A stretch of 64,000 bases of DNA from Escherichia coli (GTDB lineage Bacteria; Pseudomonadota; Gammaproteobacteria; Enterobacterales; Enterobacteriaceae). A program made the position numbers and the translations under genes. Of this stretch, positions 32,911 through 37,834 are shown piece by piece. Location: NCBI RefSeq assembly GCF_024502345.1, contig NZ_JALDNN010000001.1. One strand, 5' to 3'. Within the stretch, counting starts at the first letter, position 1. Each line of letters begins with the position of its first letter. A model generated the notes under the pieces. That model was not told where the DNA came from. It searched no databases and worked only from the letters and a program-made list of their open reading frames with translations.

Positions 32911-33978
32911 ATGGATAAGAGTAAGCGCCATCTGGCGTGGTGGGTTGTCGGGTTACTGGCGGTGGCTGCTATCGTGGCGTGGTGGCTGTTGCGCCCGGCA
33001 GGTGTGCCGGAAGGCTTTGCCGTCAGCAATGGGCGCATTGAAGCGACGGAAGTGGATATCGCCAGCAAAATTGCCGGGCGTATCGACACCATTCTGGTGA
33101 AAGAAGGCCAGTTTGTTCGCGAAGGCGAAGTGCTGGCGAAGATGGATACTCGCGTGTTGCAGGAACAGCGACTGGAAGCCATCGCGCAAATCAAAGAAGC
33201 ACAAAGCGCCGTTGCTGCCGCGCAGGCTTTGCTGGAGCAACGGCAAAGCGAAACTCGTGCCGCGCAGTCGCTGGTTAATCAACGCCAGGCCGAACTGGAC
33301 TCCGTGGCTAAACGTCATACGCGTTCCCGCTCGCTCGCCCAACGAGGGGCTATTTCTGCGCAACAGCTGGATGACGATCGCGCCGCCGCTGAGAGCGCCC
33401 GAGCTGCGCTGGAATCGGCGAAAGCTCAGGTATCGGCTTCTAAAGCGGCTATAGAAGCGGCACGCACCAATATCATTCAGGCGCAAACCCGCGTCGAAGC
33501 CGCACAAGCCACTGAACGGCGCATTGCCGCAGATATCGATGACAGCGAACTGAAAGCCCCGCGTGACGGACGCGTGCAGTATCGGGTTGCCGAGCCAGGC
33601 GAAGTGCTGGCGGCAGGCGGTCGGGTGCTGAATATGGTCGATCTCAGCGACGTCTATATGACTTTCTTCCTGCCAACCGAACAGGCGGGCACGCTAAAAC
33701 TGGGCGGTGAAGCCCGGCTGATCCTCGATGCCGCGCCAGATCTGCGTATTCCTGCAACCATCAGTTTTGTCGCCAGTGTCGCCCAGTTCACGCCAAAAAC
33801 CGTCGAAACCAGCGATGAACGGCTGAAACTGATGTTCCGCGTCAAAGCGCGTATCCCACCGGAATTACTCCAGCAGCATCTGGAATATGTCAAAACGGGC
33901 TTGCCGGGCGTAGCGTGGGTGCGGGTGAATGAAGAACTTCCGTGGCCTGACGACCTCGTGGTGAGGTTGCCGCAATGA
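32911..33978 (+). CDS. yhiI: HlyD-family periplasmic adaptor / membrane fusion protein YhiI, 355 aa
   Basis: ORF with N-terminal TM anchor and long coiled-coil region; [27 protein letters not shown]...; stop overlaps the rbbA start (ATGA). Confidence 0.92.
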
Positions 33979-36710
33979 CGCATCTGGAACTGGTTCCCGT
34001 CCCGCCTGTCGCGCAACTGGCGGGCGTGAGCCAGCATTATGGAAAAACCGTTGCGCTGAACAATATCACACTCGATATTCCGGCCCGCTGTATGGTCGGG
34101 CTGATTGGTCCGGATGGCGTCGGGAAGTCGAGTTTATTGTCATTGATTTCCGGTGCTCGTGTCATTGAGCAGGGCAATGTGATCGTGCTGGGCGGCGATA
34201 TGCGCGACCCGAAGCATCGCCGCGACGTCTGCCCGCGCATCGCCTGGATGCCGCAGGGGCTGGGCAAAAACCTCTACCACACCTTGTCGGTGTATGAAAA
34301 CGTCGATTTTTTCGCTCGCCTGTTCGGTCACGACAAAGCGGAGCGGGAAGTGCGAATCAATGAGCTGCTGACCAGCACCGGGTTAGCACCGTTTCGCGAT
34401 CGTCCGGCAGGGAAACTCTCCGGCGGGATGAAGCAAAAACTGGGGCTGTGCTGTGCGTTAATCCACGACCCGGAACTGTTGATTCTTGATGAGCCTACGA
34501 CGGGGGTTGACCCGCTCTCCCGCGCCCAGTTCTGGGATCTGATCGACAGTATTCGCCAGCGGCAGAGCAATATGAGCGTTCTGGTCGCCACGGCCTATAT
34601 GGAAGAGGCGGAACGCTTCGACTGGTTGGTGGCGATGAATGCCGGAGAAGTGTTGGCAACTGGCAGCGCCGAAGAGCTGCGGCAGCAAACGCAAAGCGCC
34701 ACGCTGGAAGAAGCATTTATAAATCTGTTACCGCAAGCGCAACGCCAGGCGCATCAGGCGGTAGTGATCCCACCATATCAACCTGAAAACGCAGAGATTG
34801 CCATCGAAGCGCGCGATCTGACCATGCGTTTTGGTTCCTTCGTTGCCGTTGATCACGTCAATTTCCGCATTCCACGCGGGGAGATTTTTGGTTTTCTTGG
34901 TTCGAACGGCTGCGGTAAATCCACCACCATGAAAATGCTCACCGGATTGCTGCCCGCCAGCGAAGGTGAGGCGTGGCTGTTCGGGCAACCGGTTGATCCA
35001 AAAGATATCGATACCCGCCGTCGTGTGGGCTATATGTCGCAGGCGTTTTCGCTCTATAACGAACTCACCGTGCGGCAAAACCTGGAGTTACATGCCCGTT
35101 TGTTTCACATCCCGGAAGCGGAAATTCCCGCGCGAGTGGCTGAAATGAGCGAGCGTTTTAAACTCAACGACGTTGAAGATGTTCTGCCGGAGTCATTGCC
35201 GCTCGGCATTCGCCAGCGGCTTTCGCTGGCGGTGGCGGTGATTCATCGTCCGGAAATGTTAATCCTCGATGAACCTACTTCTGGCGTCGATCCGGTGGCG
35301 AGGGATATGTTCTGGCAGTTGATGGTCGATCTCTCGCGCCAGGACAAAGTGACTATCTTCATCTCCACCCACTTTATGAACGAAGCGGAACGCTGCGACC
35401 GAATCTCACTGATGCATGCCGGAAAAGTGCTCGCCAGCGGTACACCGCAGGAACTGGTTGAGAAACGCGGAGCCGCCAGTCTGGAAGAGGCATTTATCGC
35501 CTATTTGCAGGAAGCGGCAGGGCAGAGCAACGAAGCCGAAGCGCCGCCCGTGATACACGACACCACCCACGCGCCGCGCCAGGGATTTAGCCTGCGCCGT
35601 CTGTTTAGCTACAGCCGCCGCGAAGCGCTGGAACTGCGACGCGATCCGGTACGTTCGACGCTGGCGCTGATGGGAACAGTGATCCTGATGCTGATAATGG
35701 GTTACGGCATCAGTATGGATGTGGAAAACCTGCGCTTTGCGGTGCTTGACCGCGACCAGACCGTCAGTAGCCAGGCGTGGACGCTCAATCTCTCCGGTTC
35801 CCGTTACTTTATCGAACAGCCGCCGCTCACCAGTTATGACGAGCTTGATCGTCGGATGCGTGCGGGCGATATCACGGTGGCGATTGAGATCCCGCCCAAT
35901 TTCGGGCGCGATATCGCGCGTGGTACGCCTGTGGAACTCGGCGTCTGGATCGACGGAGCGATGCCCAGTCGTGCCGAAACGGTAAAAGGTTACGTGCAGG
36001 CAATGCACCAGAGTTGGCTTCAGGATGTGGCGAGCCGACAATCGACACCCGCCAGCCAAAGCGGGCTGATGAACATTGAGACGCGTTATCGCTATAACCC
36101 GGACGTAAAAAGCCTGCCAGCGATTGTTCCGGCGGTGATCCCGCTTCTGCTGATGATGATCCCGTCAATGCTAAGCGCCCTTAGCGTGGTGCGGGAAAAA
36201 GAGCTTGGGTCGATTATCAACCTTTACGTGACCCCCACCACCCGTAGCGAGTTTTTGCTTGGCAAACAGCTGCCGTACATCGCGCTGGGGATGCTGAACT
36301 TTTTCCTGCTCTGCGGCCTGTCGGTGTTTGTGTTTGGCGTACCGCATAAAGGCAGTTTCCTGACGCTCACCCTGGCGGCGCTGCTGTATATCATCATCGC
36401 CACCGGAATGGGGCTGCTGATCTCCACCTTTATGAAAAGCCAGATTGCCGCCATTTTCGGTACGGCGATTATCACGTTGATCCCGGCGACACAGTTTTCC
36501 GGGATGATCGATCCGGTAGCTTCGCTGGAAGGGCCTGGACGTTGGATCGGCGAGGTTTACCCGACCAGTCATTTTCTGACTATCGCCCGCGGAACGTTCT
36601 CGAAAGCGCTGGATCTGACTGATTTGTGGCAACTTTTTATCCCGTTGCTGATAGCCATCCCGCTGGTGATGGGCTTAAGCATCCTGCTGCTGAAAAAACA
36701 GGAGGGATGA
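33975..36710 (+). CDS. rbbA: Ribosome-associated ATPase RbbA (YhiH): two ABC ATPase domains fused to an ABC-2 permease domain, 911 aa
   Basis: ORF with two Walker A motifs ([18 protein letters not shown]), two LSGG signature motifs and C-terminal TM segments. Confidence 0.94.
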
Positions 36711-37834
36711 TGCGCCATTTACGCAATATTTTTAATCTGGGTATCAAAGAGTTGCGCAGTCTACTCGGTGATAAAGCGATGCTGACATTGATTGTCTTCT
36801 CGTTTACGGTGTCGGTGTATTCGTCAGCGACCGTGACGCCAGGATCGTTAAACCTCGCGCCGATCGCCATTGCCGATATGGATCAATCGCAGTTATCGAA
36901 CCGGATCGTTAACAGCTTCTATCGCCCGTGGTTTTTGCCACCGGAGATGATCACCGCCGATGAGATGGATGCCGGACTGGACGCCGGGCGTTATACCTTT
37001 GCGATAAATATTCCGCCTAATTTTCAGCGTGATGTCCTCGCCGGACGCCAGCCGGATATTCAGGTGAACGTCGATGCCACGCGCATGAGCCAGGCATTTA
37101 CCGGCAATGGGTATATCCAGAATATTATCAACGGTGAAGTGAACAGCTTTGTCGCGCGCTACCGTGATAATAGCGAGCCGTTGGTATCGCTGGAAACCCG
37201 GATGCGCTTTAACCCGAACCTCGATCCCGCGTGGTTTGGCGGGGTGATGGCGATCATCAACAACATTACTATGCTGGCGATTGTATTGACCGGATCGGCG
37301 CTGATCCGCGAGCGTGAACACGGCACGGTGGAACACTTACTGGTGATGCCGATAACGCCGTTTGAGATCATGATGGCGAAGGTCTGGTCGATGGGGCTAG
37401 TGGTGCTGGTGGTATCGGGATTATCGCTGGTGCTGATGGTGAAAGGCGTGCTGGGCGTACCGATTGAAGGCTCGATCCCGCTGTTTATGCTGGGCGTGGC
37501 GCTCAGTCTGTTTGCCACCACGTCAATCGGCATTTTTATGGGGACGATAGCGCGTTCAATGCCGCAACTGGGGCTGCTGGTGATTCTGGTGCTGCTGCCA
37601 CTGCAAATGCTTTCCGGTGGATCCACGCCGCGCGAAAGTATGCCGCAGATGGTGCAGGACATTATGCTGACCATGCCGACGACACACTTTGTTAGCCTCG
37701 CGCAGGCCATTCTCTACCGGGGTGCCGGATTCGAAATCGTCTGGCCGCAGTTCCTGACGCTGATGGCAATTGGCGGCGCGTTTTTCACCATTGCGCTGCT
37801 GCGATTCAGGAAGACGATTGGGACAATGGCGTAA
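36710..37834 (+). CDS. yhhJ: ABC-2 family transporter permease YhhJ, about 374 aa
   Basis: ORF 36626..37834; tandem ATGATG at 36707..36712 overlapping the rbbA stop; conserved N-terminus [19 protein letters not shown]. Confidence 0.9.
   Translation: MRHLRNIFNLGIKELRSLLGDKAMLTLIVFSFTVSVYSSATVTPGSLNLAPIAIADMDQSQLSNRIVNSFYRPWFLPPEMITADEMDAGLDAGRYTFAINIPPNFQRDVLAGRQPDIQVNVDATRMSQAFTGNGYIQNIINGEVNSFVARYRDNSEPLVSLETRMRFNPNLDPAWFGGVMAIINNITMLAIVLTGSALIREREHGTVEHLLVMPITPFEIMMAKVWSMGLVVLVVSGLSLVLMVKGVLGVPIEGSIPLFMLGVALSLFATTSIGIFMGTIARSMPQLGLLVILVLLPLQMLSGGSTPRESMPQMVQDIMLTMPTTHFVSLAQAILYRGAGFEIVWPQFLTLMAIGGAFFTIALLRFRKTIGTMA

What the first reader, a model, noticed from the sequence alone, without database searches (positions are those of the whole stretch)
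32911..37834. yhiI-rbbA-yhhJ: translationally coupled HlyD adaptor, fused ABC ATPase-permease and ABC-2 permease
The three genes overlap by 4 bp (ATGA) and by tandem ATGATG, implying tight stoichiometric coupling. RbbA is described as ribosome-associated, but the operon architecture is that of a tripartite efflux or export system, and the substrate is unknown.
Basis: partly seen in the sequence, partly recalled or inferred. Interest (0 to 1): 0.3.

Follow-up and report, generated by a model that had tools for sequence, protein, structure and literature searches.

The report
Known E. coli yhiI-rbbA-yhhJ pump operon
This is the already annotated E. coli yhiI-rbbA-yhhJ operon, whose sequence, relatives and predicted structure all point to a membrane efflux pump of unknown cargo rather than the ribosome factor its name suggests.

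Summary
yhiI (32911-33978), rbbA (33975-36710) and yhhJ (36710-37834) lie head to tail. They share an ATGA overlap and a GGAGGGATGATG junction.

The operon is present in 5413 of 5426 complete E. coli genomes and is annotated there under these names. Such overlaps are ordinary: the nik and hicAB operons in the same window have them too.

- **Parts.** YhiI is a membrane-anchored HlyD-type adaptor. RbbA is two ATPase domains fused to an ABC-2 membrane domain. YhhJ is the second ABC-2 membrane domain.
- **Paralogy.** The operon is a collinear paralog of ybhGFSR.
- **Conservation.** The three-gene cassette recurs in every evaluable locus among 80 distant bacterial genomes. A TolC-family gene abuts it in about a quarter of them.
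- **ATP sites.** One site is conserved as degenerate and the other as canonical.
- **Structure.** Predicted models match only type V ABC exporters.
- **Ribosome factor test.** RbbA lacks the defining features of ribosome-binding ABCF proteins, and a main paper behind the ribosome/YhjD story was retracted in 2025.

The pump reading is already in the literature, as the YHIH subfamily and as the predicted pump "YhiH/YhhJ". The substrate remains unknown, and gene neighbourhoods gave no hint.

Verdict: real, ordinary, already known. A conserved yhiY leader upstream is the most interesting side observation.

The parts
32550..32577 (+). Sigma-70-like promoter match (TAGACA-16-TACTAT, with TG), just after the yhiJ-like stop. 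It is a candidate promoter only.
   Evidence: The number of matches in the region is no higher than in shuffled sequence, so this is weak evidence.
32691..32765 (+). Conserved 5' block of the yhiI leader. It holds the starts of two overlapping small ORFs.
   Evidence: The block is 89% identical between E. coli and Citrobacter. The yhiI coding sequence is 80% identical, its third codon positions 53%, and DNA further upstream 31%.
32735..32848 (+). yhiY, an annotated 37-codon upstream ORF (MMTTLLPVFTKPSPLALNALRAGRICRFLLIPDGRIR).
   Evidence: Annotated in RefSeq and translated here. The literature lists it among validated small ORFs with an RNA 3' end less than 200 nt downstream, and reports Rho-dependent premature termination for yhiI (PMC7815308).
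32842..32862 (+). Hairpin CCGCUGAAC-GUC-GUUCGGCGG that encloses the yhiY stop codon (32846-32848).
   Evidence: Sequence; the hairpin appears in the minimum-energy fold. Citrobacter has CCCGCUGAAUA-GC-UAUUCAGUGGG at the same place, which keeps the pairing through changes on both sides. Only 3 distinct sequences are available, so this is suggestive only.
32911..33978 (+). yhiI, a membrane fusion (periplasmic adaptor) protein of 355 aa. It has an N-terminal membrane anchor at aa 8-26 and a long Ala/Gln/Glu/Arg-rich helical hairpin at about aa 84-205.
   Evidence: Pfam HlyD_3, HlyD_D23 and CusB_dom_1. 30% identical to YbhG. The nearest solved relatives are EmrA and MacA. Hydropathy. dN/dS 0.018.
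33975..33978 (+). ATGA overlap of the yhiI stop and the rbbA start. A GAGG Shine-Dalgarno-like motif lies at 33963-33966.
   Evidence: The same -4 junction occurs in 36 of 64 homologous loci.
33975..36710 (+). rbbA (formerly yhiH/yhiG), 911 aa: ATPase domain 1, ATPase domain 2 and an ABC-2 membrane domain in one chain.
   Evidence: Pfam 2x ABC_tran plus ABC2_membrane_3. NCBIfam NF033858 RbbA equivalog, 1596 bits against a cut-off of 1050. AlphaFold2 model with pLDDT 86 and pTM 0.77. dN/dS 0.019.
34011..34694 (+). RbbA ATPase domain 1 (aa ~13-240). Motifs: Walker A GPDGVGKS, canonical signature LSGGM, Walker B LLILDEP. The switch histidine is replaced (TAY).
   Evidence: Across 75 sequences, LSGGM occurs in 74 and the H-loop His is absent in all 75.
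34797..35519 (+). RbbA ATPase domain 2 (aa ~275-515). Motifs: Walker A GSNGCGKS, degenerate signature LPLGI, Walker B MLILDEP. The switch histidine is present (THF).
   Evidence: LPLGx is the usual form at the signature position, and TH occurs in 75 of 75.
35592..36689 (+). RbbA membrane domain (aa ~540-905). It has six helices and a ~130-aa extracytoplasmic domain between helices 1 and 2 (aa ~582-712, nt 35718-36110).
   Evidence: Hydropathy, secondary structure of the model, and 32% identity to YbhS.
36700..36705 (+). AGGAGG Shine-Dalgarno sequence for yhhJ, encoded by the last codons (Gln-Glu-Gly) of rbbA.
   Evidence: GGAG lies within 20 nt upstream of the permease start in 42 of 73 homologous loci, against 5.5% of random 20-nt windows inside the genes. 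The C-terminal K-Q-E is nearly invariant.
36707..36712 (+). ATGATG junction. The rbbA stop TGA is at 36708-36710. The yhhJ start is at 36710 as annotated, or possibly at 36707.
   Evidence: E. albertii and Citrobacter keep the TGATG junction.
36710..37834 (+). yhhJ, an ABC-2 membrane protein of 374 aa. It has six helices and an extracytoplasmic domain at aa ~43-180 (nt 36836-37249). It is the partner membrane domain for RbbA.
   Evidence: Pfam ABC2_membrane_3. It matches the membrane part of the RbbA model at E = 4e-42. 24% identical to YbhR. The model of the RbbA membrane domain fused to YhhJ has pLDDT 80.5 and pTM 0.77. dN/dS 0.033.

Best explanation
yhiI-rbbA-yhhJ encodes an adaptor-dependent ABC exporter of the type V (ABC-2) fold.

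**Proposed assembly and cycle**
- RbbA supplies both ATPase domains and one membrane domain. YhhJ supplies the second membrane domain. Together they form a 1:1 pseudo-symmetric heterodimer in the inner membrane, with two extracytoplasmic domains.
- Only one of the two ATP sites is catalytically canonical: Walker A/B and the switch His of domain 2, plus LSGGM of domain 1. The other site is conserved as degenerate. It probably binds ATP and acts as a structural or regulatory site.
- YhiI is anchored by one N-terminal helix. It forms the periplasmic adaptor ring, and its long helical hairpin reaches an outer-membrane channel. Because E. coli has no such gene in the operon, TolC is the likely partner.
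- ATP hydrolysis would then expel a substrate, still unknown and probably hydrophobic or amphipathic, from the inner membrane or periplasm across the envelope.
- Expression is probably kept low by a conserved leader with the yhiY upstream ORF and Rho-dependent termination.

**Shown here:** gene structure, domain content, paralogy, cassette conservation, linkage to outer-membrane-factor genes in relatives, ATP-site asymmetry, predicted fold, purifying selection.

**Inferred:** the heterodimer, the use of TolC, the direction of transport, the nature of the substrate and the leader mechanism.
For: **Domains**
- YhiI is a HlyD-type adaptor, RbbA is two ABC_tran domains plus ABC2_membrane_3, and YhhJ is ABC2_membrane_3.
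- The best NCBIfam subfamilies for the ATPase part are DrrA, NodI and GldA, all ABC-2 exporter ATPases.
- The nearest solved sequences are ABCA3/4/1/7 and ABCH.

**Paralogy.** The operon is collinear with ybhG-ybhF-ybhS-ybhR at 30%, about 40%, 32% and 24% identity.

**Cassette conservation**
- All 8 distant representatives at 32-58% identity carry adaptor, fused ABC gene and permease in that order.
- Among 80 genome loci from Alpha-, Beta-, Gamma- and Deltaproteobacteria, Myxococcota and Lentisphaerae, the adaptor is present in 71 and the permease in 78. All the exceptions are cut at a locus edge.

**Outer-membrane factor**
- A TolC-family (OEP) gene lies on the same strand next to the cassette in 21 of the 80 genome loci, and divergently in one more.
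- Two of the 8 metagenomic representatives also have one.

**ATP-site asymmetry** is conserved in 75 of 75 sequences.

**Structure**
- The RbbA model has pLDDT 86 and pTM 0.77.
- The model of the RbbA membrane domain fused to YhhJ, built from 23 natural pairs, has pLDDT 80.5 and pTM 0.77.
- Its Foldseek hits are only type V exporters. They include chains that contain both membrane domains: Pdr5, Cdr1, ABCA7/1/3/4 and the mycobacterial efflux pump of entries 8k1m/8k1n.

**Selection.** dN/dS is 0.018-0.033 for all three genes.

**Literature**
- RbbA-mCherry is spread over the membrane, and RbbA-3xFLAG is found in inner-membrane preparations (PMC6788730).
- The paralog YbhFSR has reported efflux phenotypes (PMC7190983).
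Against: - I found no transport activity, substrate, or YhiI-RbbA-YhhJ or TolC interaction for this system in the searchable literature.
- E. coli, Citrobacter and Providencia have no outer-membrane factor gene in the operon, and there is none in the 64-kb window. The TolC step is therefore inferred by analogy.
- RbbA was originally purified as a ribosome-bound ATPase. A truncated RbbA without its membrane domain still changes in vitro translation yields, by 0.6- to 2.1-fold (PMC12096078).
- The heterodimer model comes from an artificial single-chain fusion with a shallow alignment. No interface error estimate was available.
Confidence: 0.75

Rival explanations
1. RbbA is primarily a translation factor. 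It would be a ribosome-bound ATPase that binds near the E site and promotes release of deacylated tRNA. Its membrane domain and its two neighbours would be secondary or unrelated.
For: - This is the historical basis of the gene name, as summarised in PMC3083400 and PMC12096078.
- In a reconstituted system, truncated RbbA raised the yield of some peptides 1.2- to 2.1-fold and competed with EttA and Uup.
- Tandem ATPase domains resemble EttA at the level of general fold (Foldseek ranks 14-17).
Against: - No ABCF linker domain (ABC_tran_Xtn) was found by Pfam.
- Between reference positions 240 and 280, which bracket the junction of the two ATPase domains, 72 of 75 family members have only 36-44 residues.
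- The ATPase domains group with ABC-2 exporter ATPases, not with ABCF proteins.
- TM-scores to EttA are low, at 0.21-0.38.
- The protein carries six membrane helices and localises to the membrane.
- It is always encoded between an adaptor and a permease, often next to a TolC-like gene.
- The in vitro effect is small: 9% mean enhancement, against 31-74% for true ABCF proteins. It was obtained with a form that lacks the membrane domain.
- The 2011 paper linking RbbA, YhjD and the 30S subunit was retracted in 2025 over image concerns.
Confidence: 0.08
2. The system is an inner-membrane and periplasm machine that does not use an outer-membrane channel. For example, it could extract or flip a lipid or envelope component, with YhiI acting only as a periplasmic accessory.
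For: - The closest solved relatives of the membrane module, including its extracytoplasmic domain, are lipid transporters: Tribolium ABCH-9C with ceramide, and ABCA1/3/4/7.
- About three quarters of homologous loci have no adjacent outer-membrane factor gene.
- One remote homolog lies next to FadL-like and lipid-acyl NRPS-like genes.
Against: - YhiI has the long helical hairpin that adaptors use to reach TolC-type channels, and it is most similar to EmrA, MacA and YbhG.
- A TolC-family gene sits in the same operon in 21 of 80 genomes from many lineages. That is hard to explain if the family never uses one.
- E. coli pumps such as AcrAB, MacAB and EmrAB also lack an operon-encoded channel and use TolC (established knowledge).
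Confidence: 0.15
3. It is a type I secretion system for a protein or peptide, as some database records name RbbA ('putative type I secretion system, ATP-binding protein').
For: One source name among the close homologs says so (P0051). The HlyD-family adaptor also fits in general terms.
Against: - Type I secretion ABC proteins have the ABC_membrane (type IV) fold followed by a single ATPase domain, and they work as homodimers.
- RbbA has two ATPase domains followed by an ABC-2 membrane domain, and its model matches only type V exporters.
- No RTX-like or bacteriocin gene recurs next to the cassette.
Confidence: 0.02

Closest known systems
E. coli YbhGFSR (with the regulator CecR)
   Same: - Same gene order and the same four functional modules: adaptor, tandem ATPase, and two different ABC-2 membrane proteins.
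- Identities of 30%, about 40%, 32% and 24%.
- The same ATP-site asymmetry. YbhF domain 1 also lacks the switch His and has LSGGM; domain 2 has LPLGF (alignment).
   Different: - In RbbA the tandem ATPase is fused to the first membrane protein (YbhF plus YbhS in one chain).
- RbbA and its close relatives lack the roughly 50-65-residue insertion between the two ATPase domains that YbhF and the remote fused homologs carry.
- There is no adjacent TetR-type regulator. Instead there is a leader with an upstream ORF.
YHIH subfamily of the DRI family in the Dassa ABC classification
   Same: The subfamily is defined by exactly this composition, a fused ABC-membrane protein plus a membrane protein plus an adaptor, and is listed as 'unknown / putative drug resistance' (PMC2821768). 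RbbA under its old name YhiH gives the subfamily its name.
   Different: Nothing differs. This is the family's founding member.
MacAB-TolC
   Same: An ABC transporter with extracytoplasmic domains, a HlyD-type adaptor and an outer-membrane channel encoded elsewhere. MacA is among the solved relatives of YhiI.
   Different: MacB is a homodimer with four helices per subunit and the FtsX-type (type VII) fold, and each subunit has one ATPase domain. RbbA-YhhJ is a six-plus-six-helix ABC-2 (type V) heterodimer with a degenerate ATP site.
Type V exporters with solved structures: Tribolium ABCH-9C, ABCA1/3/4/7, the mycobacterial efflux pump of PDB 8k1m-8k1p (ATPase subunit Rv1218c), KpsMT-KpsE
   Same: These are the best structural matches to both models. 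ABCH and ABCA also have an extracytoplasmic domain after the first helix. KpsMT works with a periplasmic partner.
   Different: Sequence identity is only 8-22%. None of them has the ATPase-ATPase-membrane domain order, and none is known to pair with a HlyD-type adaptor of the YhiI/YbhG kind.
ABCF proteins (EttA, Uup, YbiT, YheS)
   Same: Two ATPase domains in one chain. Truncated RbbA competes with them in vitro.
   Different: ABCF proteins are soluble and have a linker of about 80 residues that contacts the P-site tRNA. RbbA has no such linker and has a membrane domain.

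Membership tests
RbbA equivalog (NCBIfam NF033858) / YHIH subfamily | Full-length match above the curated cut-off to the model of two ATPase domains plus an ABC-2 membrane domain. | tested here: met
   1595.9 bits against a cut-off of 1050, covering model positions 1-908 of 909.
RbbA equivalog (NCBIfam NF033858) / YHIH subfamily | The system is made of a fused ABC-membrane protein, a separate membrane protein and a membrane fusion protein. | tested here: met
   Pfam domains of the three products. The same cassette occurs in all evaluable homologous loci. The family definition is in PMC2821768.
Type V (ABC-2) ABC exporter | ABC-2 type membrane domains: six helices each, two per transporter. 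| tested here: met
   ABC2_membrane and ABC2_membrane_3 hits in RbbA and YhhJ. Six hydrophobic segments in each. Foldseek hits are only type V exporters.
Type V (ABC-2) ABC exporter | Two ATPase domains per transporter, with Walker A, Walker B and the catalytic Glu. | tested here: met
   Both domains carry them. One composite site is degenerate.
Type V (ABC-2) ABC exporter | ATP-driven export of a substrate. | not testable with these tools
Tripartite envelope-spanning efflux pump (adaptor + inner-membrane transporter + TolC-family channel) | A periplasmic adaptor of the membrane fusion protein family, encoded with the transporter. | tested here: met
   YhiI has HlyD_3, HlyD_D23 and a biotin-lipoyl-like domain. 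Its relatives are EmrA, MacA and YbhG.
Tripartite envelope-spanning efflux pump (adaptor + inner-membrane transporter + TolC-family channel) | A TolC-family outer-membrane factor as the third component. | tested here: inconclusive
   No such gene is in the operon or the window in E. coli. One is adjacent in 21-22 of 80 homologous genome loci and in 2 of 8 metagenomic loci. Use of TolC in E. coli is inferred.
Tripartite envelope-spanning efflux pump (adaptor + inner-membrane transporter + TolC-family channel) | Physical assembly of the three components. | not testable with these tools
   This needs co-purification or cryo-EM.
ABCF ribosome-binding ATPases | Soluble protein with no membrane domain. 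| tested here: not met
   RbbA has a six-helix ABC-2 domain, and the literature reports membrane localisation.
ABCF ribosome-binding ATPases | An inter-domain linker of about 80 residues that contacts the P-site tRNA (Pfam ABC_tran_Xtn). | tested here: not met
   No ABC_tran_Xtn hit. Only about 40 residues lie between reference positions 240 and 280.
ABCF ribosome-binding ATPases | Binding to the ribosomal E site. | not testable with these tools
   Older biochemistry claims it (summarised). One supporting paper has been retracted.
Type I secretion ABC transporter (HlyB type) | An ABC_membrane (type IV) domain placed N-terminal to a single ATPase domain. | tested here: not met
   No ABC_membrane hit, and the domain order is ATPase-ATPase-ABC-2.
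MacB type (type VII) ABC transporter | An FtsX-type four-helix membrane domain. | tested here: not met
   No FtsX hit. ABC-2 families match instead, and MacB is absent from the structural matches.

The most novel reading that the evidence does not exclude
RbbA could be a true dual-purpose protein. It would be the motor of a membrane-embedded, adaptor-linked efflux pump whose cytoplasmic tandem ATPase also docks on ribosomes. Together with the conserved yhiY upstream-ORF/Rho leader, this would tie pump activity or expression directly to the state of translation. The pump might, for example, export a ribosome-targeting compound or a nascent peptide product.

My evidence does not exclude this. 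Truncated RbbA still affects in vitro translation, and the leader is conserved beyond coding constraint. Nothing here supports ribosome docking by the full-length membrane protein.
Probability: 0.06. Interest if true: 0.8.

Novelty: already known. Interest (0 to 1): 0.22.

Why it matters
If the pump reading is right, the gene name and the product name still used in RefSeq ("ribosome-associated ATPase") mislead annotation of thousands of genomes. E. coli would then have a second YbhGFSR-like, probably TolC-dependent ABC pump whose cargo is unknown.

That matters modestly for inventories of efflux and envelope transport. It also matters for interpreting screens in which rbbA appears, such as the microcin C association in PMC10926693 and the ciprofloxacin heteroresistance module in Salmonella in PMC12523005.

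Two features give concrete handles for experiments: the conserved degenerate/canonical ATP-site pair and the conserved leader. None of this changes a general concept, because adaptor-dependent ABC pumps and asymmetric ABC ATPases are both well known.

Tried and rejected
1. **Word-indexed protein search with RbbA.** It was saturated by near-identical E. coli sequences and gave no distant relatives. The exhaustive representative search replaced it.
2. **Substrate hints from gene context.** I ran Pfam on the nearest non-cassette ORF on each side of 65 cassettes. No family occurred in more than 3 of 125 ORFs, so I rejected context as a source of substrate information.
3. **A known RNA element in the yhiI leader.** Rfam gave only one chance-level hit at E = 8.4. 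The 236-nt leader folds no better than shuffled sequence, z = 0.12. The riboswitch-screen paper that mentions the operon refers to a site 6.6 kb away.
4. **Building the paired membrane-domain alignment from DNA references that span both genes.** This failed because of the internal stop codon. I supplied 22 natural pairs as plain sequences instead.
5. **Promoter and terminator scans.** Match counts did not exceed those in shuffled sequence. No intrinsic terminator was found between yhhJ and hicA.
6. **Other family assignments.** I considered and rejected membership in the ABCF, HlyB-type type I secretion and MacB-type families (see the membership tests).
7. **The 1283-1286-aa RbbA-YhhJ 'fusions' in the database.** I considered them as natural evidence for partnership. 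They are frameshifts near the rbbA 3' end, next to its A and G runs, and mostly occur in single records. I treat them as likely sequencing errors, not as evidence.

Full report
**Observation**

- The yhiI/rbbA junction reads gcaATGAcg, a 4-nt overlap.
- The rbbA/yhhJ junction reads AGGAGGGATGATGcgc. The rbbA stop is at 36708-36710, with in-frame ATGs at 36707 and 36710.
- RefSeq annotation uses the second ATG, which gives a 1-nt overlap.

Megablast finds the region in 5413 of 5426 complete E. coli genomes, always on the chromosome and annotated yhiI, rbbA and yhhJ.

The overlaps themselves are ordinary. From the ORF coordinates, the nik operon in this window overlaps by 4, 1, 4 and 1 nt, and hicAB overlaps by 4 nt. 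The annotated O157 region shows eight overlapping same-strand junctions in 23 kb.

**What the products are**

- **YhiI.** Pfam calls it a HlyD-type membrane fusion protein. It has a single N-terminal hydrophobic anchor at aa 8-26 and no other membrane segment. Its nearest solved relatives by sequence are EmrA and MacA.
- **RbbA.** It has two ABC ATPase domains followed by an ABC2_membrane_3 domain. It matches the NCBIfam RbbA equivalog over its full length at 1596 bits, against a cut-off of 1050.
- **YhhJ.** It is an ABC2_membrane_3 protein and aligns to the membrane part of the RbbA model at E = 4e-42.
- **Membrane modules.** Each has six hydrophobic segments, with a 130-140-residue loop between the first two.

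An ABC transporter needs two ATPase domains and two membrane domains. RbbA brings 2 + 1 and YhhJ brings 0 + 1. A 1:1 heterodimer is the simplest reading. This is an inference.

**Paralogy**

I compared the products with ybhGFSR from E. coli K-12.
- YhiI matches YbhG at 30% identity.
- The two RbbA ATPase domains match the two YbhF domains, in order, at about 40%.
- The RbbA membrane domain matches YbhS at 32%.
- YhhJ matches YbhR at 24%.

The operon is thus a collinear paralog in which the YbhF and YbhS equivalents are fused.

**Relatives elsewhere**

An exhaustive search of cluster representatives found fused homologs at 32-58% identity. In all eight whose contigs I read, the order is adaptor, fused ABC gene, ABC-2 permease.

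A scan of one genome per species returned 80 loci. They come from Alpha-, Beta-, Gamma- and Deltaproteobacteria, Myxococcota and Lentisphaerae. I made my own ORF and HMM census of them.
- An adaptor ORF abuts the fused gene in 71 loci. The other nine are cut at the locus edge.
- A YhhJ-like permease follows in 78 loci. The other two are cut.
- A TolC-family gene lies next to the cassette on the same strand in 21 loci: 18 upstream of the adaptor and 3 after the permease. It is divergent in one more. These loci span many lineages.
- Two of the eight metagenomic representatives also have an adjacent TolC-family gene.

This is the strongest computational support for an envelope-spanning pump. The enterobacterial operons lack such a gene, and the window holds none. 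Use of TolC in E. coli is therefore inferred by analogy with AcrAB, MacAB and EmrAB (established knowledge).

**Junctions**

Across the homologous loci, the adaptor/ABC junction is -4 nt in 36 of 64 and overlapping in 43 of 64. The ABC/permease junction falls between -4 and +7 nt in 69 of 75.

The nearly invariant C-terminal Lys-Gln-Glu of the fused protein is encoded by AAR CAG GAG. It thereby supplies an AGGAG Shine-Dalgarno sequence for the permease gene. GGAG lies within 20 nt of the permease start in 42 of 73 loci, against 5.5% of random windows inside the genes.

Co-translation of RbbA and YhhJ is therefore a conserved feature, which fits a 1:1 pair. It says nothing about YhiI. In solved pumps of this kind the adaptor is present at six copies per transporter (MacAB-TolC, established knowledge).

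**ATP sites**

In 75 aligned family members:
- Both ATPase domains keep Walker A, the Q-loop Gln, Walker B and the catalytic Glu.
- Domain 1 has a canonical LSGGM signature in 74 of 75, but lacks the switch His in all 75 (usually T-A-Y).
- Domain 2 has the switch His in all 75, but a degenerate signature (LPLGx).

Each ATP site is built from the Walker motifs of one domain and the signature of the other. The family therefore has one consensus site (domain 2 Walker motifs plus the domain 1 signature) and one degenerate site. YbhF shows the same pattern. This kind of asymmetry is well known in heterodimeric ABC exporters.

**Structure**

AlphaFold2 on the 75-sequence alignment gives a confident RbbA model, with pLDDT 86 and pTM 0.77. 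Its best Foldseek match in the PDB is the Tribolium lipid transporter ABCH-9C, which aligns over the ATPase-plus-membrane part. Tandem-ATPase subunits, EttA (with low TM-scores) and ABCA proteins follow.

To isolate the membrane part and test the pairing, I joined RbbA residues 536-911 to YhhJ. I aligned this with 22 natural pairs treated the same way. The model has pLDDT 80.5 and pTM 0.77.

Every significant Foldseek match to it is a type V exporter: ABCH-9C, Pdr5, Cdr1, ABCA7/1/3/4, the mycobacterial efflux pump of entries 8k1m-8k1p, NosY, KpsM, and ABCG1/2. For single-chain full transporters, the alignments span both membrane domains.

This is consistent with a type V heterodimer. It is not a proof, because the fusion is artificial and no interface error estimate was available.

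**The ribosome name**

RbbA fails the two sequence-level features that define ribosome-binding ABCF proteins.
- It is not soluble.
- It has no ABC_tran_Xtn linker. In 72 of 75 members only 36-44 residues lie between positions 240 and 280, which bracket the junction of the two ATPase domains.

Its ATPase domains also group with exporter ATPases.

In the literature:
- RbbA-mCherry is spread over the membrane (PMC6788730).
- The 2011 paper linking RbbA to YhjD and the 30S subunit was retracted in 2025.
- A 2025 study found that a truncated RbbA without its membrane domain changes yields in a reconstituted translation system. The changes were modest and went in both directions.

I therefore rate 'primarily a translation factor' as unlikely. 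I cannot exclude some ribosome affinity of the isolated ATPase part.

**What is already known**

- The operon is listed as a transcription unit.
- 'YhiH/YhhJ' is listed among five predicted E. coli ABC drug pumps.
- YHIH is a named subfamily with exactly this composition and unknown function.
- I found no paper that shows a substrate or a complex.
- rbbA appears in association lists for microcin C resistance and for ciprofloxacin heteroresistance in Salmonella. Neither was followed up by experiment.

**Selection and substrate**

Against an O157 genome, dN/dS is 0.018, 0.019 and 0.033 for yhiI, rbbA and yhhJ. All three are under strong purifying selection.

The census of flanking genes found no recurrent neighbour. 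Context therefore gives no substrate. The nearest structural relatives carry lipids, and one remote homolog sits beside FadL-like and lipid-acyl NRPS-like genes. This is a weak hint of a hydrophobic cargo.

**Upstream leader**

The finding's left edge, 32911, is probably not the edge of the unit.
- RefSeq annotates a 37-codon ORF, yhiY, at 32735-32848.
- A block at 32691-32765 is 89% identical between E. coli and Citrobacter. The yhiI coding sequence is 80% identical, its third codon positions 53%, and DNA further upstream cannot be aligned.
- A 9-bp hairpin at 32842-32862 encloses the yhiY stop codon. Citrobacter keeps it with changes on both arms.
- Published work reports Rho-dependent premature termination for yhiI. 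It lists yhiY-yhiI among candidates for regulation through an upstream ORF (PMC7815308).
- No Rfam family matches, and the leader as a whole folds no better than shuffled sequence.

**Verdict**

The pump interpretation is well supported by sequence, comparative and structural evidence, but it is already in the literature and unproven by experiment. The inference from overlap to stoichiometry is only partly justified. The finding is a known member of a known kind, and interest is low.

Noticed in passing
window 32691-32910: The yhiI leader is conserved beyond what coding would require. The 5' block at 32691-32765 is 89% identical to Citrobacter, against 80% for the yhiI coding sequence and 53% at third codon positions. 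The region holds the annotated upstream ORF yhiY (32735-32848), an overlapping 22-codon ORF (32698-32766), and a hairpin over the yhiY stop (32842-32862) that keeps its pairing in Citrobacter through changes on both sides. In Citrobacter the two small ORFs are joined in one frame. The conserved unit may therefore be DNA or RNA rather than peptide.
   Followed up: partly
window 36695-36712, and 73 homologous loci: The nearly invariant C-terminal Lys-Gln-Glu of RbbA-family proteins is encoded by AAR CAG GAG. These codons double as the AGGAG ribosome-binding site of the downstream permease gene. The motif is present in 42 of 73 loci, against a 5.5% background.
   Followed up: yes
window 32911-37834 and 39000-44000: The window comes from an uncommon E. 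coli lineage. The pump operon is at best 98.5% identical to any of 5413 complete genomes. The nik region reaches 99.8%, but in only six genomes (O169:H41 and relatives). Almost all differences from an O157 genome in the three genes are synonymous.
   Followed up: partly
window 37906-38537: A hicA/hicB toxin-antitoxin pair with a 4-nt overlap sits directly between yhhJ and nikR. A perfect 15-bp palindrome at 38592-38624 follows hicB. Other strains carry additional islands here: a PTS/aldolase cluster in O157, and the rhsB region in K-12 (recalled from memory, not checked here).
   Followed up: no
proteins P0001-P0010 (database), corresponding to window ~36690-36712: Rare database proteins of 1272-1286 aa fuse RbbA and YhhJ. 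They arise from frameshifts near the rbbA 3' end, around its A and G runs. Most come from single records, so they are probably sequencing errors. They do show that a head-to-tail fusion is topologically possible.
   Followed up: partly
window 28989-32545: Two tandem DUF4049 genes of unknown function (yhiJ-like) lie just upstream of the operon on the same strand. Only the second (30923-32545) was scanned here; the first (28989-30662) is assigned by position against the O157 annotation. The second has a dN/dS of 0.28 against O157, which is much more relaxed than in the pump genes.
   Followed up: no
L018 12292-17745; L089 17162-19842: Some genomes carry a second, unfused YbhGFSR-type cassette (adaptor, tandem ATPase, two permeases), or another outer-membrane-factor/adaptor pair, right next to the RbbA-type cassette. 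This suggests that these pump paralogs cluster together.
   Followed up: no
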